Shown piece by piece: positions 17,901 through 54,768 of a DNA stretch of 64,000 bases; positions within the stretch are counted from its first letter, which is position 1, and each line of letters opens with the position of its first letter. The notes below the pieces were generated by a model. The model was not told the DNA's origin and did no database searches. It was given only the letters and a program-made list of their open reading frames with translations. This DNA is from Planctomycetota bacterium (GTDB lineage Bacteria; Planctomycetota; PLA2; JAEUHO01): the NCBI GenBank assembly GCA_030066775.1, contig JASJAY010000003.1, forward strand, positions 53 to 64,052, given 5' to 3'. The position numbers and the translations under genes are program-made.

Positions 17901-18724
17901 GCAAGGACGTCCCGACGGGCGCCACCGGTGTCGACTTCACGCTGGACCTCGGCGTGTTCATCGAAGGCACAGTGACGGGGCCCGAGGGTGAGCCCGTGGG
18001 CGACCTGCACGTCAACGCCCGACCCGTGAGCAAGGAGAGCGGTCGACGCCGCGTCAGCACGTGGGTGCGTGCCGGCAGCACCACGTTCCGCCTCGGGCCC
18101 ATGGCGCCGGGTCTCTACAAGCTCAGCGCAGGCGCCAGCGGCGAGTACAAGCGGCCCGAGCCGATCGAGGTGCGTGCCCCCGCAGCCGACGTGAAGATCG
18201 TCGTGCCGCGCGGCAACCCCGTCCGCGGCACGCTCCAGGGCGACGATGTCGCGGGCTTCGACATCTGGTTCGGCTACCGGCCCGAGCGGGGCGGCTGGAG
18301 CGCTCGACAGGCGCGCGTGCGCTCCGACGGCAGCTTCCTGATCTCGCTGGCCGACGACGTGACCGGCGTGATCTACGCCTACAAGGACGGCGACACGCGC
18401 TATGCCTTCGTAGAAGACGTCCGTCCCGCGGCGGGCCCCGTGACGGTCCGGCTGCAGCAAGGCAAGCGCATCGCGGGACGCGTCGAGAACCTGGATCCCG
18501 ACGCCAAGACGCGCTTCAACGGCGAGTTCGTGGCCCAAGTGACACTGCGCCACGAGAGCGGCTTCCAGCGCTCGGCCTTGGTTGCCAAGGACGGGACGTT
18601 CGAGGCGACCGGCCTCCCGGACGGCACCTTCAGCGCCAGCGTGCGGCAGGGCCGACGCCGAGCGAAGTCGGTGGACGCAGAAGCGGGAACCACCGGCCTC
18701 GTCCTCCGTTTGGTCGAGAGGTAG
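14903..18724 (+). CDS. Large secreted protein of ~12 tandem carboxypeptidase-regulatory-like (CarboxypepD_reg, prealbumin-fold) repeats
   Basis: 1273 aa. It has an N-terminal signal anchor ([21 protein letters not shown]). There are about 12 repeats of the form GRVVDxxGxPVAGVxV ... DGRF ... LxPGxYxL. A strong Shine-Dalgarno sequence (aggaggaggg) lies 5-14 nt upstream. Confidence 0.75.
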
Positions 18725-25223: not shown

Positions 25224-25291
25224 GCGCCTTGGCCGCCTCCGCAGCTCTTCGCGGTCCGTGAGGCTCCCTCCTGCCGGTACGATCCACCGCC

Positions 25292-33292: not shown

Positions 33293-36200
33293 GTGGCACG
33301 CATCCCGTGCGTTTCCTGTGGGCAGAGGACCGACGTTCCGCGCCGGCCCGCCGACACCCGCTGTCCGAGCTGCGGCGCCTGGCTCAACGTGCTCCCGTGG
33401 CGTGAGCTGTGGGCCGCGCAGGATCTCCGCGACCGCATTCGTGCGGATCGCGAGCTCCCCGACGACTTCCGCGAGCAGCTCGAGCGGCTGCTCGAGGGCC
33501 GCATCCGGAGGATGCGCGAGGACCTCGCGACCGCCGAGGCGCTCGCGCGCGCGGCGCGCCCCGAGCCGCCGCCCGCCGCAGCGGTCCCGCCACCGCCCAC
33601 GCCGGCGTCGCTGCCCCCGCCGCTCGAGCCGACGGCACCGATCGAGCCGGTGCCGCTCGAGGCACCCGAGCCGCACGATGCGCCCACGCCCGCCCCGACC
33701 CCGGCGCGGCCGCGTGCGCCCACGGTCTGGCAGCGGTTGGGGCCGGCGTTCGCCGAGAACCTCGGGTTCGGGCTGGCGGCCTTCCTGATCGTGGCGGGGG
33801 CCGTCTACTTCACGACCACGGCGTGGACGACGATGTCGGGCGCGCAGCGCTTGATGGTCGTCGCCGGCGGCCTCGTACTCCTGGGCGGGGTGCTGTTCGC
33901 GGCGGCGCGCTTGCTCAACCGCGCCGGCAACCTGCCCGAGGTCGAGCGCACGCTGCTGCTGATCGTCGCGTTCCTCATCCCGATCGCCGCCATCCCCGCC
34001 GGCACGCTGTTCCCGCTCTCGACCTGGCGCGCCCTGCTCGCGACCGGCATCGTCTTCGGCGGCGGGTGGTTCGCGGCCCGGCACCTGGCCCGCGTACTCG
34101 GCGATGCGCACGCCACGTTCCTGCCCTCGGCCCTCATCGCGCTCTCGGCGCTCTCGCTCCTCGGCGGCGCCATGCCGCCCGCCGCGCCCGTCGTCTCGGC
34201 GCTGATCATCGCGCTGTTCTTGATCGGCGTGACGTGGCTCTATGCGCGACGCGTCGTGCCCCGGCTCGAGTCCAAGGACTGGCGCGCGCTGTGGCCCACG
34301 ATCCTCTTCGCGTTCGCCGCGGTCGTCGCCGTCGGTCGGCTCGCGATCGCCGGCCGCGCCACGTGGTCGATGGGGACGTCGCTGTCGACGCTGGGCATCG
34401 TCATCGCGGCGCTCGGGGGCGCCGTCGTCACCTGCGAACCCGCGCTGTACGCACGCCGCCTTCTCGGACGCCGGCGCTCCGCGGTCCTGCTCGTCGTGGC
34501 CATGGCCCTCGGCATCACCGGCACGCTCATGGCGCTCGGCGACGACGTCGGGCTCTTGGTCGCGTCGCTGCTCGGTGCGTACGCGTGTCTGCGCGCCGGC
34601 TTCGCGCTGCCGGTTCCGTGGTTCGCCTTGCCTGGCCTCGTCCTGTCGGCGTTGGCCTACCTCAAGTCGCCTGCGCCCATCCGCGCCGCAGCCTTGCAGC
34701 TTCGCGATCAGGCCGCCGACGCCCTCGGCTACGCGGACCGGCCCATGCCGCTCGCCTGGTACGGCATGACCTTCCTGCCGTACGTGTTCCTCTGCGCGTG
34801 CGCGGGATGGATCCTGCTGCGCCGGGACGAGGCGGCGAAGGCGCGCGTGCTGCTCGCGTGGTCGTTCGTCGCGGCCGTGGGGCTCTCGGCCCTCGCCCTG
34901 TTCGCCAGCGGGGATCCCGTCTTCAGCGATCTGCGTGCCCCGGCTGCGGTGTTCGCTGCGCAGGGCGGGCTGCTGTTGGCCATGGGCGTGGCGCTGCGCG
35001 GCCGCTGGTTCACGTTCGGCGGCGCGGCGGGCGTCATCGCGGGACTCGCGTGCGCCGTGCTGCACTACCGGCCCAGCGCGCCGATCGCGGTGCTCGCGCT
35101 CGCTGCGCTGGGCGTGGTCGCGCTCGGCGCCTGCGCCCGCCTCGCCCGTGAGGGGACCGAGGCGCACACCGCCGTGCGGGCCGGCCTCATCGACGCCACC
35201 GCCTTGCTCACGCTCGTGCTCGTCGTCGTCGCGACGGTCGACGCCCTCACGCTGGCACCGGCCCCGGCCTGGCATGCCCTCGGCCACGTTCTCCTGACCG
35301 TGCTCGTTGCGGCCGTCGCCTTCTCCGTGCGTCGCCCGGAAGGCGTCGCGCTCGCCGGCGTCGCCCTCGGCGCAGCCGGCGTGCGTCTCGTCGCGGGCCT
35401 CGCGCCCGACGCCGGTGGCGATGTCTACTTCCTCGTCCTCGCGCTCGTGTCGGGGGCCGTGCTCCTGGCGCCGCGCGTCGAGCGGTTGCTCCCGGAGGCC
35501 TTGCGGCACCCGCTGCCCGCGGCGCCCGCATCGCTCGGTTCGTGGACGCCCTTCGGCGCGATGGCGATCCAGGTGCTGGGACTCATCCTGCTCCTGCGCT
35601 ACCTGCCCGAACCGGGCTGGACGCTGACCCTGGCCATCGGTCTGCTCGTCGCGGCGGGGGTGCTGGCCACGGCCGCGGCCCGCGAGGCGCAGCCGTGGCC
35701 GCTCTACCCCGGCGTGTGCGAGCTCGTCGCTGCGGGCGTCGTCGCCGGAACGGCGCTCACGTCGGGGCGCTGGTACGGGACGGGAGGACTGCTCGGTACT
35801 GCCGGCTCTCTTGCCCTGGTCTGCGCGCCCTTGCTCTTCGACCGCCCCCGAGCGCTCACCGAGCGCCTGCGCGTTCCGCTGCGTCACCTGCTCCCCGTGC
35901 TCGTCACGGGGTTCGCCGTCTGGGCGTTCGGACTCGTCGTGGCGTGGTGGGCCGGGGAGGCGGCGGACCTGGACGGCTGGCGGCTGCTCGTCGCGGCGCT
36001 GGCCGTTGCGCTCGTCGTGCGCGCCACGCTCGTGCGGCACCTGCGCTCGCACGCGGTTCGCGCGGCGACGCTGTACGCGGGCACGCTCTTCGCGCCCGCG
36101 GCGGCCGGGCCGCTCATCGCGCGCCATCCGGTCGCGACGCACACGTGGGCGCTTGCGTGCCTCGCCGCGGCAGCCGTCACATGGGTCTGGGCCGGCCGGG

Positions 36201-38272
36201 ATCGGCGCATCCGGCCGCCGGCGGTGCTGCACCTCGTGCTGGCGCTCGCGTTCGCCACGTGGTCATCGGCCATGGGGACGGGGGATCCCTACGTCCTGCT
36301 CGGCGCCTTCCTGCTCTGCGCCGGCGGTGGCTGGGTCACCGCGCGGCGCGTACCGGTCCTCGGCTGGTGCCTGCTCCTCGTTGCGCTGCTGCTCGGGATC
36401 TCGATGCCGCTTTGCGCGCGCATCCTCCACGTGGAGCTCACGTACCAGCCGGCGGTCTGGCTCCTCTTCGCGGCCGCGGCGTACGCCGCGCTGGCCGTGC
36501 GCGGCCTGGGCGTCGACGCGCGGGCGGTGCGCATCGTCGCGGATCCGATCCTCTCGCTCGGCGTGATCGGCGCGCTCATGCACGCGGTCCACGTGACCGT
36601 GCTCGAGCCGACGACCGCGCGCGTCGGTGAGGGGTTGCCGATCACCGTCGCGGGATTGCGCGTCGCGGAGGGGGCGCTCGGTCTGGCGGCCCTGGCGCGC
36701 AGCCTGACCCTGCCGTTCCCCGCCTTGGGGCGGCGCACGCTGGCGCTCTTCATCATCGGCATCGTCACCTTCGCGTTCGCGCCGGTGAACATGGCGATCC
36801 ACGGCAGCGATGCCTGGTTCTGGCGGCCGGATGTCGAGCTGGCGCTCATCGCCGTCCTCCTCGCCGCCATCATGCGGCGCGCGGAGCACCCGCGCTTCGA
36901 GGATGGGTCCGGTCGGCTCGGGCAGCGAACGCAGTGGCCGATCCTCTTGGCGCTCGTCGGTGTCGGCCTCACCGTGGCCGAGCTACGCGACCTCAGCACG
37001 CCGCTCACGGTGCTCGGCTTCACCGCCGCGCTCACGATCCTCGTCGTGCGCGATCGCGGGCCGCGTCTCGGGACGCTGGCGGCTGCCGGCACGTTGGCGA
37101 CGGCGTTGGCCTTCGCGTCCTGGTGGCGGCCCATGCCCGGCACGATCCACGAGGGCATTCTGCTCCTCTACGCCGCCGTGTGTGCGCTGGTCGCGCCCCT
37201 GCTCGGGCTGACCGCCCGGCGTCTCACGACCGAGGGCAATCCGCCCTGGCGGGTCCGCACCGGTCGCGAGGTCTACCCCGTGGCGGTCCTCGCCGCGTGC
37301 TTGACCTTCGCATTCGTGATCGCCGACGTCGGGGCCAACGCGGGGCGGCAGGCGTCGGCGCTCGAGGTCGCCCTCGCCGTCATCGGCCTCCTTGCCCCTG
37401 GCCTCGCCGCGGCCTGGGGCGCGCTGCGTGCAAGTCGCCCGCGACTCGTGCACGTCGCGCTGGGCGCGGGCCTCCTCCTCTACACGTTCTTGGTGCAGCG
37501 CACGGCCTCCCTCGACCTGTTCGACGGCTATCACCTGCACGTGCTGACCGCGATCGGGTCGTCGCTCCTGTTCGTCGCCGACCGCCGATCGTCCGCCCTC
37601 GCGCGCCTGCTCGCCATCGACGGAACGCTGCTCGCCGTGCCGGCGGCGGCGCGGTATGCCCCCGCAGCCGTCGGGCTCATGCCCCACGTCGACGGCACGG
37701 CGTCCGCGCTCGCGCTGGCCGCCGTGGCGTCGGCCGCTGCCGCGAAGCGGTTGGCGCTGCCGGCGCTCTACGCTGCCGCCGCCGTGCTCGTGAACCTGAT
37801 GCTGTACTCGTTCTGGCGGCAGAACGGGCTCGTCGACCCGGCGTTCTACGGCATCCCGCCCGGCCTCACGCTGCTCGCCGCCGCGATGCTCCTGCGCGGA
37901 CGCATCTCCTCCCCGGCGCGGCTCGCCCTCGTCGTCCCGGGCCTGGCGCTGCTCTACGGGTCGGTCGCCATCCAGGTCGTGCGCGCGGACGAGCCGGTGC
38001 ACGCGCTGCTGCTCTTCGGCCTCGGGTTCCTCACCGTCGTGCTCGGCTTCTGGGCCCGGCGCAACGCGTGGATGGTGGTCGGCGTCGTCGTCATCGTGCT
38101 CGACGTCGTGACCTATCTCCTCGTACACGGCTTCGAGACGGGGTTCTTCGGGGCGGCGCTCCTCATCGTCGCGGGCCTGGTCGTGATGGCGGTCGCGGCG
38201 ATCACCACCACGCGGCGTCGCCGACAGGCGGCCGCCGATGCCGACGATGCCGAGGGGGCGCGGGATGCTTGA
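33293..38272 (+). CDS. Giant (1659 aa) polytopic membrane protein with N-terminal zinc-ribbon
   Basis: One uninterrupted frame has a GTG start. The N-terminus reads CVSCGQ...CPSCGAW. A Pro-rich linker follows, then more than 40 predicted TM helices with Ala/Leu/Gly-rich composition and no recognisable catalytic motif. The stop overlaps the start of the next gene (ATGCTTGA). Confidence 0.6.
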   Translation: MARIPCVSCGQRTDVPRRPADTRCPSCGAWLNVLPWRELWAAQDLRDRIRADRELPDDFREQLERLLEGRIRRMREDLATAEALARAARPEPPPAAAVPPPPTPASLPPPLEPTAPIEPVPLEAPEPHDAPTPAPTPARPRAPTVWQRLGPAFAENLGFGLAAFLIVAGAVYFTTTAWTTMSGAQRLMVVAGGLVLLGGVLFAAARLLNRAGNLPEVERTLLLIVAFLIPIAAIPAGTLFPLSTWRALLATGIVFGGGWFAARHLARVLGDAHATFLPSALIALSALSLLGGAMPPAAPVVSALIIALFLIGVTWLYARRVVPRLESKDWRALWPTILFAFAAVVAVGRLAIAGRATWSMGTSLSTLGIVIAALGGAVVTCEPALYARRLLGRRRSAVLLVVAMALGITGTLMALGDDVGLLVASLLGAYACLRAGFALPVPWFALPGLVLSALAYLKSPAPIRAAALQLRDQAADALGYADRPMPLAWYGMTFLPYVFLCACAGWILLRRDEAAKARVLLAWSFVAAVGLSALALFASGDPVFSDLRAPAAVFAAQGGLLLAMGVALRGRWFTFGGAAGVIAGLACAVLHYRPSAPIAVLALAALGVVALGACARLAREGTEAHTAVRAGLIDATALLTLVLVVVATVDALTLAPAPAWHALGHVLLTVLVAAVAFSVRRPEGVALAGVALGAAGVRLVAGLAPDAGGDVYFLVLALVSGAVLLAPRVERLLPEALRHPLPAAPASLGSWTPFGAMAIQVLGLILLLRYLPEPGWTLTLAIGLLVAAGVLATAAAREAQPWPLYPGVCELVAAGVVAGTALTSGRWYGTGGLLGTAGSLALVCAPLLFDRPRALTERLRVPLRHLLPVLVTGFAVWAFGLVVAWWAGEAADLDGWRLLVAALAVALVVRATLVRHLRSHAVRAATLYAGTLFAPAAAGPLIARHPVATHTWALACLAAAAVTWVWAGRDRRIRPPAVLHLVLALAFATWSSAMGTGDPYVLLGAFLLCAGGGWVTARRVPVLGWCLLLVALLLGISMPLCARILHVELTYQPAVWLLFAAAAYAALAVRGLGVDARAVRIVADPILSLGVIGALMHAVHVTVLEPTTARVGEGLPITVAGLRVAEGALGLAALARSLTLPFPALGRRTLALFIIGIVTFAFAPVNMAIHGSDAWFWRPDVELALIAVLLAAIMRRAEHPRFEDGSGRLGQRTQWPILLALVGVGLTVAELRDLSTPLTVLGFTAALTILVVRDRGPRLGTLAAAGTLATALAFASWWRPMPGTIHEGILLLYAAVCALVAPLLGLTARRLTTEGNPPWRVRTGREVYPVAVLAACLTFAFVIADVGANAGRQASALEVALAVIGLLAPGLAAAWGALRASRPRLVHVALGAGLLLYTFLVQRTASLDLFDGYHLHVLTAIGSSLLFVADRRSSALARLLAIDGTLLAVPAAARYAPAAVGLMPHVDGTASALALAAVASAAAAKRLALPALYAAAAVLVNLMLYSFWRQNGLVDPAFYGIPPGLTLLAAAMLLRGRISSPARLALVVPGLALLYGSVAIQVVRADEPVHALLLFGLGFLTVVLGFWARRNAWMVVGVVVIVLDVVTYLLVHGFETGFFGAALLIVAGLVVMAVAAITTTRRRRQAAADADDAEGARDA

Positions 38273-38975
38273 GCTCCGGTGCCCGGCCTGCGAGTGCGCC
38301 AACGGCGTGACGGGTGAGGTCGACCTCGATGCCATCCGCTGCGCCGCCTGTTCCGCGGCGCTCGATCCGGACCGGTTCGTGCGCTATCGCGTAGACGGCG
38401 AGGGGCGCGCGTGGGGCAACCTGCTTCACCGCGGCCTCGTGATGCGCGCGACCCGTGGAACCCTGGATCGTGACATGCGCATCTCGGAGGAGGGCGGTCC
38501 CTGGTTCCGTGCCGGGGAGCGCCTCGACCTCTTCGCGCGCGCGCCGGGCCCCGTCACGGTGACGCCGTCGCCGCGTCCCCGAAGAGTGCGGCAACGGCAG
38601 ACGGTCCCTCCGTCGGTCGTCACGATGGCCGCGCTCGGCAAGCTGCTCGGCGTCGCACTGTTGCTTCTCGCGATGGCTGCGTTCGGCGTGAGCGCCTCGT
38701 TCGACGCCGGCGGATTGGCCGTCGGCACGTTCGTGCTCTTCGTCGGCCTGGGCGTGGGGCAGATCGCCGTGGCGAACCGTCTGCTGCAGCGCAGCGCCAC
38801 GGCGCGCAACCTGCAGCTCCTGGCCGCGACCTTCGCGGCCGTCGGCTACCTGCTCGTCGTCGCCGACGGGGCCGACGGTTTCTTCGTGCTTCTTGGCGGG
38901 GGCTTCGTCGCGATTCCGTTCCTGCTCCTCTTGCCGCAGGAGGTCCGCGCCTGGTTCGCAGGCGACGACGCCTAG
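38265..38975 (+). CDS. Small zinc-ribbon membrane protein, partner of the giant membrane protein
   Basis: It starts at MLELRCPACECANG...CAACSA, a zinc ribbon, and has 3-4 C-terminal TM helices. It is translationally coupled to the upstream gene. Confidence 0.5.
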   Translation: MLELRCPACECANGVTGEVDLDAIRCAACSAALDPDRFVRYRVDGEGRAWGNLLHRGLVMRATRGTLDRDMRISEEGGPWFRAGERLDLFARAPGPVTVTPSPRPRRVRQRQTVPPSVVTMAALGKLLGVALLLLAMAAFGVSASFDAGGLAVGTFVLFVGLGVGQIAVANRLLQRSATARNLQLLAATFAAVGYLLVVADGADGFFVLLGGGFVAIPFLLLLPQEVRAWFAGDDA

Positions 38976-39067
38976 GACATCCCGCGCGGTGACCGCTTCC
39001 GCGCGTTGGGGGGCGGCAAGGGCCTTGCTAGACTCCCGCGCCGCGCGGGACGCGCACCAGGAGCCCC

Positions 39068-40546
39068 ATGACGACCACACCGGTGATTCGTGAGTTTTCC
39101 TACTGCCTCGCCCATGTCCCGGAGCTCGTGCAGTACGGCTCGAAGCCCATGCGCGAGATCAGCCGCGATCCGTCGCTAGCCGATCGGATCGTGGCCGCGA
39201 CGCGCTCGTTCGAGGCCGCTGCCGCCTATCCGCCGAACCAGGCCTTCATCGGGCGAATCCGGCCCGAGGAACTCGCTTCGATCGAGCGGCCCTGGTTCGC
39301 GGCCGCAGCGGAGAGCGCCGAACAGGCCAACGAGATGAGCGTGGGGCCCTACGGCGAGATCGTGAGCGAAGCGCTCTTCTACTCGCTTTTGTGGCAGGCC
39401 GACATCCTCTCGCCGCCGCTGTTCGAGGTGCACGACGACGTCGCTCACCGCATGGAGAAGGTCCTGGCGGCGCACCCCGTCTTGCCGGATGCGAGCCCGC
39501 ACCGCGAGCCCTCCGAGGCGGCCGCCGCCGCGGCGCACGACCTCGAGGAGGGGCACCCGCTGCCGCTGATGTTCGACGGGCGTGAGGTGGCGTGGTTCCA
39601 CCGGGACAACCGGGCCGAGGGGCGTGAGGACGAGAACCTCATGGCCCACACCCTGCTCGAGAACCTCTGCACGAAGGCCTCGGGTGCGCTCGCGCTCTCG
39701 TGGCTCCTGCGGCGCGCCGAGCTCGAGCCGGATGCGATCGACTACGTGATCACTTGCGGCGAGGAGGCGGTGGGGGATCGCTATCAGCGCGGCGGCGGCG
39801 GCATGGCCAAGGCCATCGCCCAGATGGTCGGCTGCAGCCGCGCCAGCGGCATGGACGTGAAGAACTTCTGCGCGGCGCCGGCGAACGCCATCCTGACCGC
39901 GTGTGCCTTGGTCAAGGCGGGCCTGCACGAGCGCGTGGCCGTCGTCGGCGGCGGATCGCTGGCGAAGCTCGGCATGAAGTTCCTCTCCTTCCTCGACAAG
40001 GGCGTGCCGATCCTCGACGACTGCCTCGGTGCGATGGCCTTCCTCATCACGAAGGACGACGGCGTCAGCCCGATCGTGCGTCTGGACGAGGGCGCCGTCG
40101 GGCGCGCGCCGATCGGCGCGAGCGCCTCCGACGAGGCCGTGTACCGCAGTCTCGTGGTCGAGCCGCTGTCCGCGTTGGGGCTCACGATCCCCGACGTCGA
40201 TCGGTTTGCGCCCGAGCTGCAGAACCCCGAGATCATGGAGCACGCCGGCTCCGGCGATGTCGCGCGGAAGAACTACCGCAAGATCGCTGCGATGGCCGTC
40301 ATGTCGGGTCAGCTCGAGAAGAAGGAGATGAAGTCCTTCGTCGAGCGCGTCGGCATGTCCGGCTTCGCGCCGACCCAGGGCCACATCCCTTCCGCCGTGC
40401 CGTACCTCGGCCATGCCATCGACGCCCTGCGCAGCGGAGACATCCAGCGCGCCATGTTCGTGGGCAAGGCCAGCCTGTTCCTGGGACGCTGCACCGATCT
40501 CTTCGACGGCGTCTCCTTCTTGCTAGAACCCAACCCCGCCGCCTGA
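39068..40546 (+). CDS. grdC: Glycine/sarcosine/betaine reductase complex protein C beta-subunit-like (GrdC-like)
   Basis: 492 aa. It has a thiolase/KAS-like fold with blocks I recognise from GrdC: AAYPPNQAFIG...PWF, MAHTLLENL...YVITCGEEAVGD..QRGGG, FAPTQGHIPSAVPYLGHA and LFLGRCTDLFDGVSFLLE. It lies directly upstream of grdA. Confidence 0.6.
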   Translation: MTTTPVIREFSYCLAHVPELVQYGSKPMREISRDPSLADRIVAATRSFEAAAAYPPNQAFIGRIRPEELASIERPWFAAAAESAEQANEMSVGPYGEIVSEALFYSLLWQADILSPPLFEVHDDVAHRMEKVLAAHPVLPDASPHREPSEAAAAAAHDLEEGHPLPLMFDGREVAWFHRDNRAEGREDENLMAHTLLENLCTKASGALALSWLLRRAELEPDAIDYVITCGEEAVGDRYQRGGGGMAKAIAQMVGCSRASGMDVKNFCAAPANAILTACALVKAGLHERVAVVGGGSLAKLGMKFLSFLDKGVPILDDCLGAMAFLITKDDGVSPIVRLDEGAVGRAPIGASASDEAVYRSLVVEPLSALGLTIPDVDRFAPELQNPEIMEHAGSGDVARKNYRKIAAMAVMSGQLEKKEMKSFVERVGMSGFAPTQGHIPSAVPYLGHAIDALRSGDIQRAMFVGKASLFLGRCTDLFDGVSFLLEPNPAA

Positions 40547-40558
40547 CCAGGAGCACCC

Positions 40559-41023
40559 ATGTCGGACACCATCAAGGGCTTGAAGGCCATTGTCTTCGGG
40601 GAGCGCGACGACGTCGCCGGTCCCGCCATTCGCGCGTGCCTGGAGGCCGCGGGGGCGGAGATCGTCCACGAGAACACCGCCTGCTTCGTGTGAACGGCAG
40701 CCGGCGCCGCGGGTCTCGCGGAGCAGGAAACCGTCAAGAAGATCGCCGAGACGCACGACCCGTCGTCGTTGGTCGTCGTGCTCGGTCTGAACGAGCCGGC
40801 CGCGCTCAAGATCATGGCGACGACGTACAAGCACGGGGATCCGAGCTTTGCCGGCGTGCTCGCCGGGGTCGCGCTCGGGATCCCGAGCTACCACGTCCTC
40901 GAGCTGAAGGACCAGGTGCCCGACGAGGTGTGGTCGGATCAGCTCGGCATGGTCGAGCTGGAGCTCGAAGACGAGGAAGTCGAGGCGATCACCGCTGCGA
41001 TGACCGAAGTCCGCGGTAGCTAG
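40559..41023 (+). CDS. grdA: Glycine reductase selenoprotein A (GrdA) with in-frame UGA selenocysteine codon at 40691-40693
   Basis: The frame reads MSDTIKGLKAIVFGERDDVAGPAIRACLEAAGAEIVHENTACFV-TGA-TAAGAAGL.. and continues into the track ORF 40769..41023 (..HGDPSFAGVLAGVALGI..DQLGMVELEL). This matches the GrdA consensus GPAI..C..AGAE.V..ENT.CFVUTAAGA / GDP.FAG.LAGV.LG. An SD-like caggag lies upstream. A hairpin (ccgcg-ggtct-cgcgg, 40707-40721) sits 13 nt after the UGA. Confidence 0.8.
40694..40725 (+). ncRNA. Candidate bacterial SECIS stem-loop for grdA
   Basis: There is a 13-nt spacer after the UGA, then a stem ccgcg/cgcgg with apical loop ggtct. This placement is expected for a SelB-binding element. 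Confidence 0.4.
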
Positions 41024-41037
41024 CGTTCGTTTCGAGC

Positions 41038-42369
41038 CTAGACCGGGGTCGGCTCGAACACGGTCTGGGCATCGATCGAGGTCGTGAGGGCGTCCAGCGC
41101 CCGCTCGACCAGCCGCCGCCGCAGCGCCCGCTCGTCGTCCGCGGACAGCGACGGGTCGCCCAGGGGGTGCGGGATCGCGATCGACGGCACGATGCGGTTG
41201 GCACCGACTGTCTTCGAGATCGGGACGATCGAACAGACGTGAACGGTGGGGATGCCCGCCCGCTCGATCTCCTTGACCAGCGTTGCACCGCAACGCGTGC
41301 ACGTGCCTCAGGTCGACGTCAGGATCACCGCCTGGACCTGGGCCTCCTTCAGCTGCGCCGCGATCTCGGCGCCGAACTTGCGTGCGCGCTCGACCGACGT
41401 CGCGTTGCCGACCGTTGCGTAGTACGTCTCGTGCAGGTCGCCGATGCGGCCCTCGGCCACGAGCTCGCGGACGACGTCCAGCGGCAGCACGCGGTTCGGG
41501 TCCTCGAAGGCGTAGGTCGGGTCGTAGCCGCCGTGCACCGTCGTGTGCGTCTGGCTCGACAGGCGCTCGAGCCCGGTGATGTCGTAGGCGCCGAAGCGGC
41601 TGGCATCCGCCGACTCGATCCGGTCCGGGTTGCCGCGCGGCACGATGCCGCCGCTCGTGACGAACGCCACGCGGCACGACGAGAGGTCGGGCGCGGCCGG
41701 TGCCGGCGGAACGCGCTCGAAGAGGGGCATCTCGTATTCGGTCTCGAACGGCTCGCCGGCCAGCTTCTTCATCAGCATGGCCACCGCGCGCACGGCGCCG
41801 GTCTCCCCGGCGAACTCGTTCTGGCGGATCCCGCGGGTGAGCGTTCCATCGGCGCTGGGCACCAGCGGCTCGCCGGCGGCCAGCTTCTTGCCGACCCGCG
41901 CCAGACCCTCCATGGCGGCGGGCATGCCGAGCACGTCCCGACCGGCCTCGACGATCGGGACCGTCCGCCGGAATGCGTCGGCGCCGGGGTTCTCGGGATG
42001 GAGGGCGGTCACGGCAGGGAGCCCGATGCGCTCGGCCACGGCGGCGCACACCGATCCGCAGGCCAGGCCGTAGCGGCCGGCGAAGAAGGCCGGACCCGCG
42101 ACGAGCAGCGCGGGCGGTTCGTCGCCGGCGTCGATCACGCCCCGAACGAGGTCCACCACGGCGCCGACGGCCGCATCGCCGCCGTCCATCATGTGGTCGT
42201 CGCCTGCGATGATCGTCGCCACGATCTCGAGGTCCGGGTCCAGCTGCATCAGGAGGAGCCCGGGCCCCTTCGCCCCGTCGATGACGGACGGCGCGACGCC
42301 GGCCTGATCTTCTCCGCCCAGCCCACCGAAGAACTGGTTCAGGTAGTGGATGACGCGCACACGGCCCAT
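41038..42369 (-). CDS. grdB: Glycine/sarcosine/betaine reductase selenoprotein B (GrdB family) with in-frame UGA at 41308-41310 (minus strand)
   Basis: The track ORF 41308..42369 begins MGRVRVIHYLNQFFGGLGGEDQAG, the GrdB/PrdB N-terminal signature, and ends ...QAVILTST at a TGA. I translated in frame beyond the TGA and got GTCTRCGATLVKEIERAGIPTVHVCSIVPISKTVGANRIVPSIAIPHPLGD...TVFEPTPV, ending at the stop at 41038-41040. The total of about 443 aa matches GrdB size, with Sec near residue 354. Confidence 0.8.
41280..41307 (-). ncRNA. Candidate SECIS stem-loop for grdB
   Basis: On the mRNA the sequence is UGA + 11 nt (GGCACGUGCAC) + perfect 7-bp stem GCGUUGC-GGU-GCAACGC, the complement of plus 41280-41296. 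This is canonical bacterial SECIS spacing. Confidence 0.5.
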
Positions 42370-42371
42370 CG

Positions 42372-43610
42372 TTACACCTCCCGCGCCCGCAGGCGGCTGA
42401 AGCCGAGCTCGTTCGTCGATCCCATCATGGCCTGCAGCTCGACCGTCAGCCCGCCGTCCTCGCGAAGCGTCGTCGGCAGGCCGCCCGCGAGCCGCTCGAC
42501 CGAGGCGATCGGGCCGATCGTGCGCTCCATCGGCGGCAGCACGAGGACCTCGTTGGCGTTGCCGGTCGAGACGACGGCGTTCGCTTCGATCGTGGCGTCG
42601 GCCAGGGACTGCGAGCCGCCGTCCTCGCCCGCGTACTCGTCGGTGATCGCGACCGTGCGGATCCCTGCCTGCTCCAGGCCGCGGATGATCATCATGAGGT
42701 CCGCATCGGGATTGCCGAAGCCCTCCTTGGAGATCACCGCCGCGTCGAGATCGAGCTCCTTGGCGAGCAGCAGCACGCCCTCCGCTGCTTTCGTCTTGTC
42801 GGCGAGCCGCACTGGCTCGGTCGAGAGCACGATCCCAGCGAACGACAGGTCGGTCCCGTGTCGCCGGAACAGCTCGCGGACGACCGGGTTGTTCTGGTGG
42901 TGGTACGTCGTGTTCTTATCGCACGCGCTCACGCAGTTCCCGGACACGATGGCGTCGTCCAGCACCACCTCGGGGCTGACGATGCGCGGCAGGTCCGCCT
43001 GACGGGCGTTCACGCCGAGCACATACGTGTCGTGCAGGAGCCCCTGGTTCTGCAGCAGGTACACGTAGCCGACACGAGGCAGCTTCGGGTCGCTGATGCC
43101 GCTGTCGTACGTCGTGAACGACGGGGCCGGCGCCGTCCGGGCTGTCTCGGCGAGCCACCGGGCCGCGTGCGATGACGCCATGCGCAGCACTTCCTCGTGG
43201 GCATGCAGCTCGAGCCCGGGCTCGACCTCGACTTCCAGCACGATCAGGTCGAGCGCGGAGAAGGGCGTGTAGGCGGCGCCGGGGCCGCTCATGTCGATGA
43301 TCCCTTCCTGGAACCCGACGATCGGCCCGCAGCTGACGACCGCCACGCCGGAGAGCGCGAGCATGCGCCCTTCACCGGGACGCTCGCCCTCGAGCTTGAC
43401 GCGCGGCTGCACGACGTCCTTCGTGCACACGATGCGTGTCGACGACCCCGAGGAAGCGAGGTGCACGCGTAGCTCCCGGATGCGGTCGTCCGCCGCCTTG
43501 AGCTCCCGGGCCAGGTCGTCCGCGCTCACCGTGAGGCGCGCGCCGTCCAGCGCCGTGCGCTCACCGAGCGCGACGTCGTCGACTTGAATGATGCCGATCT
43601 CGAATGCCAT
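42372..43610 (-). CDS. grdE: Glycine reductase protein B proprotein (GrdE family)
   Basis: 412 aa. MAFEIGIIQVDDVALGE...VVQPRVKLEGE follows the same pattern as the C. sticklandii GrdE N-terminus (MRLEVGNIFIKDIQFGE...VIEPRVKVEG). The internal SGNCVSAC is a candidate autoprocessing Cys. The stop lies 3 nt before the grdB start. Confidence 0.75.
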   Translation of the reverse strand: MAFEIGIIQVDDVALGERTALDGARLTVSADDLARELKAADDRIRELRVHLASSGSSTRIVCTKDVVQPRVKLEGERPGEGRMLALSGVAVVSCGPIVGFQEGIIDMSGPGAAYTPFSALDLIVLEVEVEPGLELHAHEEVLRMASSHAARWLAETARTAPAPSFTTYDSGISDPKLPRVGYVYLLQNQGLLHDTYVLGVNARQADLPRIVSPEVVLDDAIVSGNCVSACDKNTTYHHQNNPVVRELFRRHGTDLSFAGIVLSTEPVRLADKTKAAEGVLLLAKELDLDAAVISKEGFGNPDADLMMIIRGLEQAGIRTVAITDEYAGEDGGSQSLADATIEANAVVSTGNANEVLVLPPMERTIGPIASVERLAGGLPTTLREDGGLTVELQAMMGSTNELGFSRLRAREV

Positions 43611-43696
43611 GGCGGCAGACCCTACTCCGTCCGTCCCGCGTGCGGCGAGGATCGGACGTCAGATCACGGTGCGATGTCCTGCCTTTGCGGCGCTGC

Positions 43697-44719
43697 CTAG
43701 ACGGCGGCCGCCGGCTCCATGTCCGCGGTGTACGCGCCCGAGCGCGCGGCGCCGTTGCAGCGCGCGCGATGCAGGTACGCCGCCTGCGCGGCCGGCACGT
43801 TCGCAGGCTCGCCGCCCCACGCCTTGAGCGCGGGCGCCTGCAGGGCACGGCCGTACGAGAAGCTGAGCTCCCACGGCTGCGGGCCCATGGCGTTCATGGC
43901 CGACAGGTGCGCGCTCGCCAGCTCGTCGCTCTGGCCGCCGGACAGGAACACGATGCCCGGCACTGCGGCCGGGACGACCCGGCGGAAGCAGCGCACGGTG
44001 CGCTCGGCCACCTCCTGCACGTCGGCCTGGTCGGCGCACTCCGTGCCGGAGAGGACCATGTTGGGCTTCAGCAGGATGCCTTCGAGCAAGACGCCCTGGT
44101 CGTACAGCGCCGTGAAGGTGCGCTGCAGCGTCCGCGTGGTGACGTCCTCACAGCGCTGGGCGTCGTGCGGACCGTCCATGAGCACCTCGGGCTCCACGAT
44201 CGGGACGAGGCCGCACTCCTGGCTGATCTTGGCGTAGCGCGCCAGGGCGTGGGCGTTGGTGTCGATGCAGTAGTCCGTCGGGATGCCGTCGGCGATCGTG
44301 ATGACCGCGCGCCACTTGGCGAAGCGGGCGCCCAGGTCGTAGTACTCCGAGCAGCGCTCGCGGAGGCCGTCGAGGCCCTCGGTGACCTTCTCCCCGTTCG
44401 CGCCGGAAAGCGACTTCGCGCCCTTGTCGACCTTGATGCCGGGGATGATGCCCTGGTCGTTCAGCACGTTCACGAAGGGCACGCCGTCGGCGCTCGACTG
44501 GCGCAGCGTCTCGTCGAAGAGGATCACGCCGCTGACGTGGTCCGCCGCACCGTCGGTGCTGAACAGCATGCCGCGGTAGTCGCGGCGGTTGGCCTCGGTC
44601 GACTCGACGTTGATGGAGTCGAACCGCTTCTTGATCGTCCCGCTGCTCTCGTCGGCTGCCAGGATGCCCTTGCCCTCGGCCACCAAGGCCCGGGCCGTCT
44701 GCTTCAGCTCCGCACTCAT
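43697..44719 (-). CDS. fbaB: Class I fructose-bisphosphate aldolase
   Basis: The real start is MSAELKQTARALVAEGKGILAADESSGTIKKRF. The hallmarks IIPGIKVDKG (Schiff-base Lys region) and LLKPNMV fit class I aldolases. The first 36 aa of the track ORF are junk. Confidence 0.8.
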   Translation of the reverse strand: MSAELKQTARALVAEGKGILAADESSGTIKKRFDSINVESTEANRRDYRGMLFSTDGAADHVSGVILFDETLRQSSADGVPFVNVLNDQGIIPGIKVDKGAKSLSGANGEKVTEGLDGLRERCSEYYDLGARFAKWRAVITIADGIPTDYCIDTNAHALARYAKISQECGLVPIVEPEVLMDGPHDAQRCEDVTTRTLQRTFTALYDQGVLLEGILLKPNMVLSGTECADQADVQEVAERTVRCFRRVVPAAVPGIVFLSGGQSDELASAHLSAMNAMGPQPWELSFSYGRALQAPALKAWGGEPANVPAAQAAYLHRARCNGAARSGAYTADMEPAAAV

Positions 44720-46741: not shown

Positions 46742-47983
46742 CTAGGGCTTGGTGACGCGGCCCATGAACAGGATCGCGCCCGTCTGCTGGTGACGGATCA
46801 CGAACACGAACGGGTGGTCCGCGTCGAAGACGATCGGCTTCTCCGGCTGCGCAGGGCGCCCGCCCTTGCGCATGATCACGACCGTCGCGGCAGCGGCCTC
46901 GGTGCCTTCTTCGTCGACCCCGACGAATGCCTTGTGCAGGACGGCGCCGATGAAGAGCCGCTCCTTCTTCGTCATGCCGGAGAAGTCGGCCGTGCGTGCA
47001 TTGAACGCAGACGGCATGCCCAGGTTGCTGAGGACCCGGGTGAGCTCCTTGCTCGTCGTGAACTCGAACTTCGGGAACCGTACGTCCACGAGGCGGCTCT
47101 GGAGCTTCCCGCTCCAGCCGGCGAGGTCCTGCTTCATGAGCCGGTTCTCGAGCGTGGCGAGGCCGTCTTCCGCGCGGGGCAGGAACACGGCCATGGAGAG
47201 CTGATTGCCACGGTAGGGCAGCTCGAGGATCTGCACGCCGTCCAGCTCGGCGTGGCGGTAGCGCCCGACGCGGCGCATGAAGTCCGCCTTGGACGTGGTC
47301 CCGTCGAGGGCGGTGAACGCGTCCTCCTTGGTGAGGTGCTTCTTGAACGGATGCAGCCAGGGCGCCTTCAGGTAGATCGCGTTCGCCAGCACGAGCCGCG
47401 TGAGCGGGTCCGGCATGTCGGGCGGCACGATGTCCTGGATCTTGTCGCGTGTCTTCTTGGCGACCCAGTCGTTGATGCGCTTGCGCGCGGCGGCGCTCTG
47501 CGCGAAGTCGATGCGCGCCAGCGGCGCGCCGTAGTCCGTTTTCAGGGCGCTGATGAACGGCGCCTCGAAGTCGAAGCCCGTCTGGCCCCACAGCGCGTTG
47601 GCGACCTCGATGTCGTAGGCGGGGACCTGCTTCGCGTCCTTGCCAAAGCCCTCACGCACCTGGCGCGGCGTCAGCGCCTCGAGCAGGGCCTGGTAGCCGG
47701 CGCCGCGGGCTACGCCTTCGAGGAACAGGACCCGATCCATCTCCTTCGCCGTGTCGCCGCGTGCCCCCTCGCGGGTCATCGCCAGGGCCGCGTGCACCGA
47801 GTAGGGCGAGACGAAGAGGTTGCCCTCCTCCGCACGCAGCTGCTCGTACAGGCTCCACGCGAACCGGTCGTTGGCTGCCGCCATCGTGGCCGCCTCGTCC
47901 TGCTCGACATCTTCGCCCTGGGCGGGCGCGATCGGTGCCAGGAGGAGCGCGGCGAAGAGCAGCAGATGGACGCAGGACTTCAT
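46742..47983 (-). CDS. Serpin (serine protease inhibitor) with signal peptide
   Basis: The real start is MKSCVHLLLFAALLLAPIAPAQG at 47983. Serpin blocks are present: NLFVSPYSVHAALAMT, the hinge/RCL EEGTEAAAATVVIMR, and PFVFVIRHQQTGAILFMGRV at the C-terminus. The first 80 aa of the track ORF are junk. Confidence 0.85.
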   Translation of the reverse strand: MKSCVHLLLFAALLLAPIAPAQGEDVEQDEAATMAAANDRFAWSLYEQLRAEEGNLFVSPYSVHAALAMTREGARGDTAKEMDRVLFLEGVARGAGYQALLEALTPRQVREGFGKDAKQVPAYDIEVANALWGQTGFDFEAPFISALKTDYGAPLARIDFAQSAAARKRINDWVAKKTRDKIQDIVPPDMPDPLTRLVLANAIYLKAPWLHPFKKHLTKEDAFTALDGTTSKADFMRRVGRYRHAELDGVQILELPYRGNQLSMAVFLPRAEDGLATLENRLMKQDLAGWSGKLQSRLVDVRFPKFEFTTSKELTRVLSNLGMPSAFNARTADFSGMTKKERLFIGAVLHKAFVGVDEEGTEAAAATVVIMRKGGRPAQPEKPIVFDADHPFVFVIRHQQTGAILFMGRVTKP

Positions 47984-48246
47984 GGCAGGGCCTCCATGTC
48001 GCCACGACGGCGCACTCCGTTCGAACCGCTTCGCAGCCGGGAGTTCCGAGCGTCCGCCGGTAATCATGTTTCCAGTCGCTGCCCGCCGAGCCCGGCCCGC
48101 GCGTCTGCCATGCCAGGACCCGCTGGGGGTCGATGGGCCGCTTGGGCCCCACGGATTGCGGGCAGCGCCCCCTCGGGGCGCGAGGACGAATCGGACGGGG
48201 CCTGCCGAGCTCCGGATTCGCATTTGCTGCCCTGCGAGGCGGGCGT

Positions 48247-54648: not shown

Positions 54649-54768
54649 GAGCCGCGGTAGCGGCGTCCTGGACACGGTTTGCCGGGCCCGCCGGTACCGT
54701 CAGGGCCCTGAGTGGACGCATCTCTCCGCCGCCCTACGGTACGGATCCGCACGTGACGGAGCCGGCCG

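What the first reader, a model, noticed from the sequence alone, without database searches (positions are those of the whole stretch)
39068..43610. Selenocysteine-containing glycine-reductase-type cluster (GrdC-like, GrdA[U], GrdB[U], GrdE) in a non-canonical convergent layout
Two reading frames are interrupted by single in-frame TGA codons exactly at the positions where GrdA (CFV-U-TAAG, 40691-40693) and GrdB (..ILTST-U-GTCTRCG.., 41308-41310) carry selenocysteine. Each TGA is followed at 11-13 nt by a hairpin. The grdB one is a perfect 7-bp stem. The ORF track splits both genes, so a standard annotation would miscall them as fragments or pseudogenes.

The organisation is unusual. grdC-like plus grdA run on the plus strand and converge on grdE-grdB on the minus strand, with only about 14 nt between the two stop codons (41023 and 41038). 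I recognise no grdD, trxA/trxB or grdX anywhere in the window. The neighbours are aerobic-type genes such as ETF-QO, peroxidase and aldolase. That layout suggests either a variant Grd-type reductase or a Grd module dependent on a distant thioredoxin system, in a high-GC lineage where such genes are rarely described.
Basis: partly seen in the sequence, partly recalled or inferred. Interest (0 to 1): 0.75.

Follow-up and report, generated by a model that had tools for sequence, protein, structure and literature searches.

The report
Selenocysteine glycine reductase cluster lacking GrdD
This is a real four-gene, selenium-dependent glycine-reductase-type cluster whose two in-frame TGA codons encode selenocysteine. 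It belongs to a widespread but apparently undescribed lineage that never has the acetyl-phosphate-forming subunit GrdD next to it.

Summary
The genes are grdC (39068-40546, +), grdA (40559-41023, +), grdB (42369-41038, -) and grdE (43610-42372, -). All four match curated Grd models. The two in-frame TGAs sit at the CxxU site of GrdA and the UxxCxxC site of GrdB. All 86 GrdA and 70 GrdB homologues I collected carry TGA at those positions. The grdB hairpin passes Rfam SECIS_4, and the grdA hairpin shows compensatory base changes. The frames after each TGA are as conserved as those before it.

GrdE keeps the Asn-Cys pyruvoyl site. GrdB fits a published glycine-type motif with two deviations.

The "unusual" convergent layout is the norm in this GrdC's closest relatives, about 30 loci from Desulfobulbales, Alpha- and Gammaproteobacteria and one candidate-phylum genome. 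None of the 86 related loci, nor the 64-kb window, has a GrdD homologue. In canonical clusters grdD directly follows grdC wherever the contig reaches grdC. GrdD-less GrdCs form a separate sequence cluster, lack a roughly 25-residue C-terminal tail, and carry diagnostic substitutions.

Verdict: a bona fide selenoprotein Grd module, a new member of a known kind, sitting in a variant lineage whose last catalytic step is unresolved. Genome-wide absence of grdD, and presence of the Sec machinery, could not be tested.

The parts
39068..40546 (+). grdC, component C beta subunit. It has a thiolase-superfamily fold with catalytic-type Cys268 (codon 39869-39871), Asn402 and His439. It is of the GrdD-less (N-type) subfamily.
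40559..41023 (+). grdA, selenoprotein A, 154 residues with Cys42-x-x-Sec45.
   Evidence: Read-through translation. PF04723 scores 146.8 bits and NF040748 scores 148.6 bits against a cut-off of 130. The closest homologue, in L006, is 76% identical.
40691..40693 (+). UGA codon for Sec45 of GrdA.
   Evidence: All 86 GrdA homologues in the fetched loci have TGA at this codon. The literature reports no Cys form of GrdA (PMC1794560).
40701..40727 (+). grdA SECIS-type hairpin. The upper stem is 40707-40711 paired with 40717-40721 (CCGCG/CGCGG), with apical loop GGUCU at 40712-40716. A weaker lower stem flanks it.
   Evidence: Fold. On 43 distinct sequences, the four innermost of the five upper-stem pairs are paired in every sequence. 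CG-to-UA swaps occur in 7 and 17 sequences. The covariation score is 0.272 against 0.140 in shuffles, with 0 of 500 shuffles reaching it. There is no Rfam hit.
41024..41037 (.). 14-nt spacer between the convergent stop codons of grdA (TAG, 41021-41023) and grdB (TAG, 41040-41038 on the minus strand).
   Evidence: Read directly from the sequence. No terminator-like site was found.
41038..42369 (-). grdB, selenoprotein B, 443 residues with Sec354-x-x-Cys357-x-x-Cys360.
   Evidence: Read-through translation. PF07355 scores 442.6 bits and TIGR01918 scores 567 bits. It falls below the equivalog cut-offs for glycine (536.8 vs 602.2), sarcosine (558.7 vs 800) and betaine (483.1 vs 775). It fits the glycine-GrdB motif of PMC9751293 except for CGD changed to AGD and AHGG changed to VHGG.
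41308..41310 (-). UGA codon for Sec354 of GrdB.
   Evidence: All 70 GrdB homologues in the fetched loci have TGA here. Public "full-length" entries show W at this site, which is TGA read as Trp.
41270..41307 (-). grdB SECIS element. The stem-loop spans 41296-41280, with a 7-bp stem GCGUUGC/GCAACGC and loop GGU.
   Evidence: Rfam RF01990 SECIS_4 scores 42.6 bits against a gathering score of 38, E = 1.7e-6 over the whole window. On 41 sequences, 94.8% of cells are paired and 3 pairs show compensatory changes, with 0 of 500 shuffles reaching the covariation score.
42372..43610 (-). grdE-type proprotein of protein B, 412 residues. The predicted self-cleavage and pyruvoyl site is Asn225-Cys226 (codons 42938-42933).
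   Evidence: PF09338 scores 488.7 bits over the full length. The motif VSGN-CVSACDKNTTYHHQNNP aligns to the same site in a canonical GrdE from L087. A Bacillaceae homologue in L055 lacks the Cys.

Best explanation
The region encodes a functional, selenocysteine-dependent reductase of the glycine/sarcosine/betaine reductase (Grd) family, most likely acting on glycine.

**Decoding (shown).** The two in-frame UGAs (GrdA Sec45, GrdB Sec354) lie directly upstream of SECIS hairpins and are decoded as selenocysteine.

**Chemistry (inferred from the established Grd mechanism).**
1. GrdE self-cleaves at Asn225-Cys226 to give a pyruvoyl group.
2. The pyruvoyl group binds the amine substrate.
3. Sec354 of GrdB takes the carboxymethyl group and ammonia is released.
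4. The carboxymethyl group passes to Sec45 of GrdA.
5. Cys42 of GrdA attacks, giving a Se-S bond and an acetyl thioester on the thiolase-type Cys268 of GrdC.
6. Oxidised GrdA is re-reduced by a thioredoxin system encoded elsewhere.

**What differs from the textbook system (shown).** This module belongs to a large lineage whose GrdC motif was found in at least 466 genome-collection hits. In that lineage grdC is followed by grdA and never by grdD, the PlsX-like subunit that makes acetyl phosphate. These GrdCs lack the C-terminal tail and carry different conserved residues from GrdD-linked GrdCs.

**How the acetyl group leaves (inferred, about even odds).** In this lineage GrdC may release the acetyl group without a dedicated GrdD, for example to CoA, as thiolase-fold enzymes do, or to phosphate or water. 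The alternative is a distant GrdD.

**Source of substrate in relatives.** The module often sits next to threonine dehydrogenase-like and glycine C-acetyltransferase genes. This points to glycine produced from threonine as the substrate.
For: - **Identity.** Curated-model hits for all four proteins. NCBI's own name for the GrdC of this contig.
- **Sec decoding.** TGA in 86 of 86 GrdA and 70 of 70 GrdB homologues. Rfam SECIS_4 above its gathering score. Covariation in both hairpins. Post-UGA frames conserved. TGA is otherwise a stop in the window.
- **Pyruvoyl site.** Conserved.
- **Glycine type.** The GrdB motif TxGNxTxV / RV[IL]PxD from PMC9751293 is present, and the sarcosine motif is absent (sequence against text). 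kbl (NF005394, 480 bits against a cut-off of 460) plus an SDR dehydrogenase lie next to related clusters in 13-16 loci.
- **GrdC fold and Cys-Asn-His.**
- **GrdD-less lineage.** No GrdD in the window or in 86 related loci, by tblastn at E < 10 and by a profile HMM built from 79 GrdDs. In canonical loci, grdC sits directly upstream of grdD in 75 of 80; in the other 5 no grdC was detected. The two GrdC sets separate perfectly, 58 against 81, with mean between-set identity of 42%. They are distinguished by a tail of about 25 residues and the residues Y239, K265, K304 and H449. Bacillaceae relatives carry trxB and trxA inside the cluster and still have no grdD.
Against: - No expression, selenium-labelling or enzymatic data exist for any member of this lineage that I could find.
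- selA, selB, selD and tRNA-Sec are not in the window. The window is nearly the whole 64,148-bp contig, so their presence in the genome is untested.
- GrdB scores below every substrate-specific equivalog cut-off and deviates from the glycine motif at two positions, so the substrate is uncertain.
- Absence of grdD was shown only within about 10 kb of each cluster and within this 64-kb contig, not genome-wide. Grd genes are known to be split between loci in some organisms.
- The partition of the two GrdC sets is partly shaped by how the loci were sampled. One set was drawn by similarity to this GrdC, the other by similarity to one Firmicute GrdD.
Confidence: 0.8

Rival explanations
1. This is an ordinary canonical glycine reductase whose missing parts (grdD, trxA, trxB) are simply encoded elsewhere in the genome. 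Under this reading, the layout is a rearrangement with no mechanistic consequence.
For: All four proteins are recognised by the standard Grd models. Split grd loci exist in this data set: grdC-grdA pairs occur with no grdB or grdE within 10 kb in L013, L032 and L076. Absence of grdD was tested only locally.
Against: - grdD directly follows grdC in all 75 canonical loci where grdC was detected, yet it is absent from all 86 related loci across many phyla.
- GrdD-less GrdCs are a separate cluster that has lost the conserved C-terminal tail and changed invariant residues. This is expected if the partner changed.
- Clusters that do carry their own trxB and trxA still lack grdD (L055-L059, L068).
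Confidence: 0.3
2. The protein B pair (GrdE-like plus GrdB-like) acts on a substrate other than glycine. Candidates are sarcosine, another small primary or secondary amine acid, or a haloacetate as in the FarE-type system. It would use the shared GrdA/GrdC module.
For: GrdB misses the glycine equivalog cut-off (536.8 against 602.2), and its best substrate-specific score is to sarcosine GrdF at 558.7. The GrdE-like protein's best named model is GrdG at 399.7. Two positions deviate from the glycine motif: CGD to AGD and AHGG to VHGG.
Against: - The scores are far below the sarcosine (800 and 780) and betaine (775) cut-offs.
- The sarcosine motifs IHGGYDR and TTGTGT are absent, and the glycine-type RVLPLD and TVGNATSV are present (against PMC9751293).
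- The pyruvoyl-forming Cys is present, which argues against a betaine type.
- kbl, which produces glycine, is a recurrent neighbour in related loci.
Confidence: 0.2
3. The two TGAs are inactivating mutations, or TGA is reassigned, so the genes are pseudogenes or are read with another genetic code.
For: Standard gene callers split both genes. The public record holds a 353-aa GrdB fragment. Some databases translate the site as Trp.
Against: - The TGAs fall exactly on the catalytic Sec positions in 86 of 86 and 70 of 70 homologues.
- SECIS elements are present and covary.
- Downstream frames are conserved and keep GC3 of about 0.9.
- TGA terminates 16 of 35 genes in the window, including grdC.
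Confidence: 0.02

Closest known systems
Clostridial-type glycine reductase complex (GrdX-TrxB-TrxA-GrdE-GrdA-GrdB-GrdC-GrdD; Eubacterium acidaminophilum, Clostridium sticklandii, C. difficile, Treponema denticola, Desulfovibrio desulfuricans G11)
   Same: Same four protein families. Same CxxU motif in GrdA and UxxCxxC motif in GrdB, both with selenocysteine. Same Asn-Cys pyruvoyl site in GrdE. Same conserved thiolase-type Cys in GrdC. Same grdB SECIS (Rfam SECIS_4).
   Different: - There is no grdD next to grdC, in the window or in any of 86 related loci.
- There is no trxA or trxB in the cluster.
- grdC-grdA and grdE-grdB are two convergent units rather than one co-directional operon.
- GrdC is only about 39-42% identical to GrdD-linked GrdCs, lacks their C-terminal tail of about 25 residues, and differs at otherwise invariant positions.
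- The grdA SECIS is a different hairpin (CCGYR-GGUCU-YRCGG) from that of canonical grdA.
- GrdB falls below the glycine equivalog cut-off.
Sarcosine reductase (GrdF/GrdG) and betaine reductase (GrdH/GrdI) protein B variants
   Same: Homologous protein B subunits that use the shared GrdA and protein C. GrdG is also a pyruvoyl proprotein.
   Different: The scores are far below the curated cut-offs (GrdF 558.7 vs 800, GrdG 399.7 vs 780, GrdH 483.1 vs 775). The sarcosine-specific motifs are absent. GrdI-type proteins lack the cleavage Cys that is present here.
Thiolase / KAS III / HMG-CoA synthase superfamily (the structural relatives of GrdC)
   Different: Sequence identity is only 9-19%. GrdC has an extra N-terminal region of about 190 residues. 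Its acyl donor is a selenoether on GrdA rather than an acyl-CoA or acyl-ACP. The acceptor in the GrdD-less lineage is unknown.

Membership tests
Glycine/sarcosine/betaine reductase (Grd) complex | Selenoprotein A (GrdA) with a CxxU redox motif | tested here: met
   Cys42-Phe-Val-Sec45. PF04723 scores 146.8 bits and NF040748 scores 148.6 bits against a cut-off of 130.
Glycine/sarcosine/betaine reductase (Grd) complex | Selenoprotein B (GrdB family) with a UxxCxxC motif | tested here: met
   Sec354-G-T-Cys357-T-R-Cys360. PF07355 scores 442.6 bits and TIGR01918 scores 567 bits.
Glycine/sarcosine/betaine reductase (Grd) complex | Protein B proprotein (GrdE/GrdG type) with a Cys that becomes the pyruvoyl group | tested here: met
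   PF09338 scores 488.7 bits. The SGN-CVSACDKN motif aligns with canonical GrdE. The cleavage itself cannot be tested here.
Glycine/sarcosine/betaine reductase (Grd) complex | Component C beta subunit (GrdC) | tested here: met
   NF040746 equivalog scores 549.3 bits against a cut-off of 450, aligned end to end. For comparison, a canonical GrdC scores 809 bits.
Glycine/sarcosine/betaine reductase (Grd) complex | Component C alpha subunit (GrdD, PlsX-like, forms acetyl phosphate) | tested here: not met
   There is no hit in the 64-kb window or in 86 related loci, by tblastn at E < 10 or by a profile HMM built from 79 GrdDs. The control locus L087 scores 669 bits. Genome-wide absence cannot be tested with these tools.
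Glycine/sarcosine/betaine reductase (Grd) complex | Thioredoxin and thioredoxin reductase as electron donor | not testable with these tools
   There is no cytoplasmic Trx or TrxR in the window. The only thioredoxin-fold gene is a secreted TlpA-like protein at 18733-20058. The rest of the genome is not available.
Bacterial selenoprotein genes | In-frame UGA followed within about 11-13 nt by a SECIS hairpin | tested here: met
   grdB passes Rfam SECIS_4 at 42.6 against 38 and covaries. The grdA hairpin covaries but matches no Rfam family.
Bacterial selenoprotein genes | Sec machinery (selA, selB, selD, tRNA-Sec) in the genome | not testable with these tools
   None is in the window (Pfam scans). 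The window covers nearly the whole contig. One relative, L059, has tRNA-Sec beside its grd cluster.
Glycine-specific reductase (GrdB equivalog TIGR01917) | Score at or above the curated equivalog cut-off | tested here: not met
   536.8 bits against a cut-off of 602.2. A related GrdD-less cluster, in Syntrophus (L052), does pass at 615.9.
Glycine-specific reductase (GrdB motif of Nobu et al., PMC9751293) | YxNx6GGE ... CGD ... GPxF[NF]AGRYG ... AHGGxD[QTAP]x8RV[IL]PxD ... TxGNxTxV | tested here: inconclusive
   Five of the seven elements are present exactly. Two deviate: AGD in place of CGD, and VHGG in place of AHGG (sequence against text).
Sarcosine reductase (GrdF/GrdG) | NF040794 and NF040793 cut-offs, and the IHGGYDR and TTGTGT motifs | tested here: not met
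   558.7 against 800, and 399.7 against 780. The motifs are absent.
Betaine reductase (GrdH/GrdI) | NF040795 cut-off, and an uncleaved GrdI without the pyruvoyl Cys | tested here: not met
   483.1 against 775. The pyruvoyl Cys226 is present.
D-proline reductase (PrdA/PrdB) | TIGR04483 and TIGR04480 equivalog cut-offs | tested here: not met
   102.7 against 300, and 60.6 against 700.

The most novel reading that the evidence does not exclude
There may be a widespread second type of glycine reductase. Its GrdC motif was found in at least 466 genome-collection hits. The 80 loci read span Desulfobacterota, Alpha- and Gammaproteobacteria, Planctomycetota, Acidimicrobiia, Chloroflexota, Bacillaceae, Latescibacterota, NC10 and Patescibacteria. 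In this type a modified GrdC would work without GrdD and hand the acetyl group directly to CoA, or to phosphate or water. That would uncouple glycine reduction from the classical acetyl-phosphate/ATP step. Together with Tdh and Kbl, it would give a redox-neutral route from threonine to two acetyl units. Such a route could also be useful to non-fermenting, possibly facultatively aerobic bacteria such as the host of this window.
Probability: 0.4. Interest if true: 0.7.

Novelty: new variant of a known kind. Interest (0 to 1): 0.45.

Why it matters
Glycine reductase is the textbook case of substrate-level phosphorylation driven by a selenoenzyme. It is also the last step of one branch of the reductive glycine pathway. 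Its energy yield depends on GrdD making acetyl phosphate.

If a large, phylogenetically broad lineage really works without GrdD, three things follow:
- The product, and so the ATP yield and physiological role, of these enzymes must be re-examined.
- Metabolic reconstructions that score "Grd present" from grdB and grdE alone may be assigning the wrong energetics.
- The presence of Grd genes in organisms with respiratory, aerobic-type gene content becomes easier to explain.

On the practical side, the locus is a clean example of two selenoprotein genes that standard pipelines truncate or mistranslate. The public record has a 353-aa GrdB fragment, and other databases place Trp at the Sec site. 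The locus also supplies a covariation-supported grdA SECIS variant that is not in Rfam.

Tried and rejected
- **Exact-sequence look-ups.** Look-ups of the window's GrdE and of the GrdB fragment returned nothing. The source contig was identified only indirectly, as an NCBI MAG labelled Planctomycetota, 64,148 bp.
- **Cluster-member look-up.** It gave no organism names.
- **Genome-collection scan.** It did not recover the source genome. The best GrdC match was 60% identical. The closest relative is an unnamed ENA metagenome contig, L006, whose GrdC is 80% identical.
- **Rfam at permissive thresholds.** No family matched the grdA hairpin.
- **Single-sequence folding.** The energies were not better than shuffles, so stability alone was rejected as evidence.
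- **Promoter and terminator scans.** None were found in 38800-43900.
- **PDB sequence searches.** GrdC, GrdB and GrdE gave no hits.
- **Literature.** Seven searches and several full-text reads found no description of a GrdD-less Grd lineage or of this layout. This covers only open-access papers and is not proof of novelty. The supplementary tables of PMC7547702 did not list the relevant taxa.
- **A conserved neighbour replacing GrdD.** Neighbourhood clustering found none. The only recurrent neighbours were tdh-like/kbl, acyl-CoA-synthetase-like genes, trxA and a P-type ATPase.
- **The weak thioredoxin hit at 18913-18999.** I considered it as the missing TrxA. It is a signal-peptide TlpA/AhpC-TSA-like protein and was rejected as the GrdA reductant.
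- **Pseudogene and code-reassignment readings.** Both were rejected; see the rival explanations.

Full report
**1. What is there**

The window is 70.6% GC. It covers almost all of a 64,148-bp NCBI metagenome-assembled contig labelled "Planctomycetota bacterium" (P0001, P0135 and P0255).

Four genes occupy 39068-43610:
- grdC, 39068-40546, plus strand, 492 aa.
- grdA, 40559-41023, plus strand.
- grdB, 42369-41038, minus strand.
- a grdE-type gene, 43610-42372, minus strand, 412 aa.

Translating through the stops gives GrdA ...TAC-F-V-U-TAAG, with TGA at 40691-40693. It gives GrdB ...ILTST-U-GT-C-TR-C-G, with TGA at 41310-41308.

Family assignments:

| Protein | Model | Score (bits) | Cut-off |
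|---|---|---|---|
| GrdC | NF040746 | 549.3 | 450 |
| GrdA | NF040748 | 148.6 | 130 |
| GrdA | PF04723 | 146.8 | 22 |
| GrdB | TIGR01918 | 567 | 65.45 |
| GrdB | PF07355 | 442.6 | 22 |
| GrdE-like | PF09338 | 488.7 | 22.2 |

[quoted passage not shown] It holds GrdB only as a 353-aa fragment that ends at the TGA. The grdA and grdB stop codons converge with 14 nt between them. Each gene has a plausible Shine-Dalgarno sequence.

**2. Are the TGAs selenocysteine codons?**

Yes, as far as sequence can show.

- All 86 GrdA and all 70 GrdB homologues in 167 fetched loci have TGA at the aligned codon. This agrees with the literature statement that GrdA has no Cys form (PMC1794560).
- Public "full-length" GrdB proteins carry Trp at the site, which is TGA read with another genetic code.
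- The 38 nt after the grdB UGA pass the Rfam SECIS_4 gathering score (42.6 vs 38).
- The grdB 7-bp stem is paired in 94.8% of cells across 41 distinct sequences, with compensatory changes at three pairs.
- The grdA hairpin (CCGCG-GGUCU-CGCGG, starting 13 nt after UGA) matches no Rfam family.
- On 43 distinct sequences from the closest relatives, the four innermost of its five upper-stem pairs are paired in every sequence. CG-to-UA swaps occur in 7 and 17 sequences.
- Those swaps require coupled amino-acid changes: Ala to Val together with Ala to Thr. The covariation score is 0.272 against 0.140 in shuffles, with 0 of 500 shuffles reaching it.
- Post-UGA frames are as conserved as pre-UGA frames. 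GrdB is 65% against 53% mean identity, and GrdA 50% against 60%.
- TGA is a normal stop for 16 of 35 window genes, including grdC.
- Folding energy alone does not discriminate in this GC-rich DNA.

The Sec machinery is not in the window (and the Pfam scans). It cannot be checked for this genome.

**3. Substrate type**

GrdE keeps the Asn225-Cys226 site inside the motif VSGN-CVSACDKN, which is shared with a canonical GrdE. A Bacillaceae homologue lacks the Cys, as betaine-type GrdI proteins do.

GrdB misses all three substrate-specific cut-offs:

| Substrate model | Score (bits) | Cut-off |
|---|---|---|
| Glycine | 536.8 | 602.2 |
| Sarcosine | 558.7 | 800 |
| Betaine | 483.1 | 775 |

However, GrdB carries the glycine-type elements RVLPLD and TVGNATSV of the motif published by Nobu et al. 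It has none of the sarcosine elements. It shows two deviations, AGD for CGD and VHGG for AHGG.

In 13-16 related loci a glycine C-acetyltransferase (kbl; NF005394, 480 bits against a cut-off of 460) lies beside the cluster, together with an SDR dehydrogenase of the kind usually paired with it. This is independent support for glycine. I rate glycine at about 0.6.

**4. The layout and the missing GrdD**

A scan of one genome per species with an alignment of this GrdC and four relatives confirmed 466 relatives, of which the best 80 were kept. They come from these groups:
- Desulfobulbales, Syntrophia and other Desulfobacterota;
- Alpha- and Gammaproteobacteria, and Planctomycetota;
- Acidimicrobiia and Chloroflexota;
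- Latescibacterota, NC10 and Spirochaetes;
- Bacillaceae and Patescibacteria.

Among the closest relatives (GrdC 50-80% identical), the convergent grdC-grdA / grdB-grdE arrangement is the rule:
- About 25 distinct loci have the two units directly adjacent.
- 5 more have genes inserted between them.
- 2 are co-directional.

The flanking genes are unrelated from locus to locus. More distant relatives are mostly co-directional, grdE-grdB-grdC-grdA. Some carry trxA or trxB inside the cluster.

No GrdD was found in any of these 86 loci or in the 64-kb window:
- tblastn with a canonical GrdD found nothing even at E < 10.
- A profile HMM built from 79 GrdDs, run against all six-frame ORFs, hit only the positive control.

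By contrast, 80 loci retrieved with a canonical GrdD have grdC directly upstream of grdD in 75. In the other 5, no grdC was detected.

GrdC sequences from the two sets separate perfectly, 58 against 81, with mean between-set identity of 42%. GrdD-less GrdCs differ in two ways:
- They lack a conserved C-terminal tail of about 25 residues.
- They differ at positions invariant within each set. In window numbering they have Y239, K265, K304, A381, L384, R404 and H449, where GrdD-linked GrdCs have N, R, N, S, M, K and F.

Both sets keep the thiolase-type Cys268, Asn402 and His439.

**5. How it most likely works**

*Shown:* gene identities, both Sec codons with their SECIS elements, the pyruvoyl motif, the GrdC fold with its conserved Cys, and lineage-wide local absence of grdD.

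*Inferred from the established Grd mechanism:*
1. The substrate forms an imine on the pyruvoyl group.
2. The carboxymethyl group passes to Sec354 of GrdB, then to Sec45 of GrdA.
3. Reductive cleavage gives a Se-S bond in GrdA and an acetyl thioester on GrdC.
4. Thioredoxin encoded elsewhere re-reduces GrdA.

*Open:* the fate of the acetyl group. There are two options.
- **(a) A distant grdD, about 0.3.**
- **(b) Release without GrdD, to CoA, phosphate or water, about 0.4-0.5.** I favour this. It fits the strict grdC-grdD coupling elsewhere, the lost tail, the changed invariant residues (two of them new basic side chains), and the existence of clusters that carry trxB and trxA yet no grdD.

This cannot be decided without whole genomes or biochemistry.

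**6. Context in the window**

Pfam and NCBIfam scans of about 40 ORFs found no trx, grdD, sel, pta or ack genes.

Neighbours on one side are:
- class I fructose-bisphosphate aldolase, LemA, an M48 peptidase and a serpin;
- a CHAT-TPR protein, an M18 aminopeptidase and a methyltransferase;
- ETF-ubiquinone oxidoreductase, rhodanese and GNAT.

On the other side are:
- a large unannotated membrane protein, a hybrid histidine kinase and FadL;
- three giant CarboxypepD_reg-repeat proteins and a secreted TlpA-like protein;
- Hsp70/DnaJ, a MoxR-DUF58 set and an animal-type haem peroxidase.

The host is therefore a diderm with respiratory-type genes. No functional link to the grd genes is evident. The ETF-QO's nearest named homologues are from Gemmatimonadota at about 70% identity, so the phylum label is uncertain.

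**7. Comparison with what is known, and novelty**

Sec-containing GrdA and GrdB outside Firmicutes have been known since 2005-2006 (PMC1088965, PMC1794560). D. desulfuricans G11 has a canonical complex with both C subunits, Trx and TrxR (PMC7547702).

So the core finding is a new member of a known kind. It is correctly read by the first-stage reader and partly annotated by NCBI.

What I could not find described in seven open-access literature searches is the split of GrdC into GrdD-linked and GrdD-less lineages, or the convergent four-gene cassette. On that basis I rate the locus a new variant of a known kind. Interest is moderate (0.45). It would rise to about 0.7 if GrdD-independence were demonstrated.

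Noticed in passing
window 18733-20058 (+): A signal-peptide-bearing thioredoxin-fold protein of the TlpA/AhpC-TSA/Redoxin type, with a WCGPC motif and a long C-terminal extension. It sits between two giant repeat proteins. It is the only thioredoxin-like gene in the window and is probably periplasmic and unrelated to Grd.
   Followed up: partly
window 14903-18724 (+), 20074-23868 (+), 25262-28249 (+): Three large paralogous proteins made of CarboxypepD_reg / Big_1 repeats. Two are about 1270 aa and one is 995 aa. Their function is unknown.
   Followed up: no
window 33293-38272 (+) and 38238-38975 (+): A 1659-aa extremely hydrophobic polytopic protein with no Pfam hit and an N-terminal CxxC...CxxC zinc-ribbon-like segment. 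The next ORF (245 aa) also begins with a double CxxC motif. These two genes lie immediately upstream of grdC.
   Followed up: no
window 3-1799 (-), 46742-48223 (-), 48064-51426 (+): Eukaryote-like families on a bacterial contig: an animal haem peroxidase (cut by the window edge), a serpin and a CHAT-TPR protein.
   Followed up: no
L001 6407-8631; L014 7811-9987; also L015, L017, L020, L022, L023, L025, L028, L035, L042, L065, L070: A glycine C-acetyltransferase (kbl) and an adjacent SDR/epimerase-type dehydrogenase, probably threonine dehydrogenase, recur next to GrdD-less grd clusters. This suggests a threonine-to-glycine-to-acetyl route. They are not present in the window.
   Followed up: partly
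L007-L010, L013, L021, L033 (Desulfocapsa-type loci): grdC-grdA pairs with no grdB or grdE within 10 kb. They are preceded by one or two AMP-binding acyl-CoA-synthetase-like genes and, in several loci, followed by a conserved unannotated protein of about 220 aa.
   Followed up: no
L066 9212 and L079 9203 (Dehalococcoidia): A second, short GrdB/PrdB-like gene with its own in-frame TGA. It is followed by a different hairpin (CACACAG-UCU-GUGUG), so a separate selenoprotein paralogue lies in the same loci.
   Followed up: no
L059 12596-12692 (-): A tRNA-Sec gene directly beside the grd cluster of Metabacillus herbersteinensis. This cluster also has two grdA copies.
   Followed up: no
P0002, P0004, P0010, P0015, P0023: Public "full-length" GrdB proteins carry Trp at the selenocysteine position because TGA was translated with another genetic code. 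P0071 is a genuine Cys form.
   Followed up: partly
window 54757-56430 (+) and the contig label: The source MAG is labelled Planctomycetota. The nearest named homologues of its ETF-ubiquinone oxidoreductase are from Gemmatimonadota (Longimicrobiales) at about 70% identity, so the taxonomic label may be unreliable.
   Followed up: no
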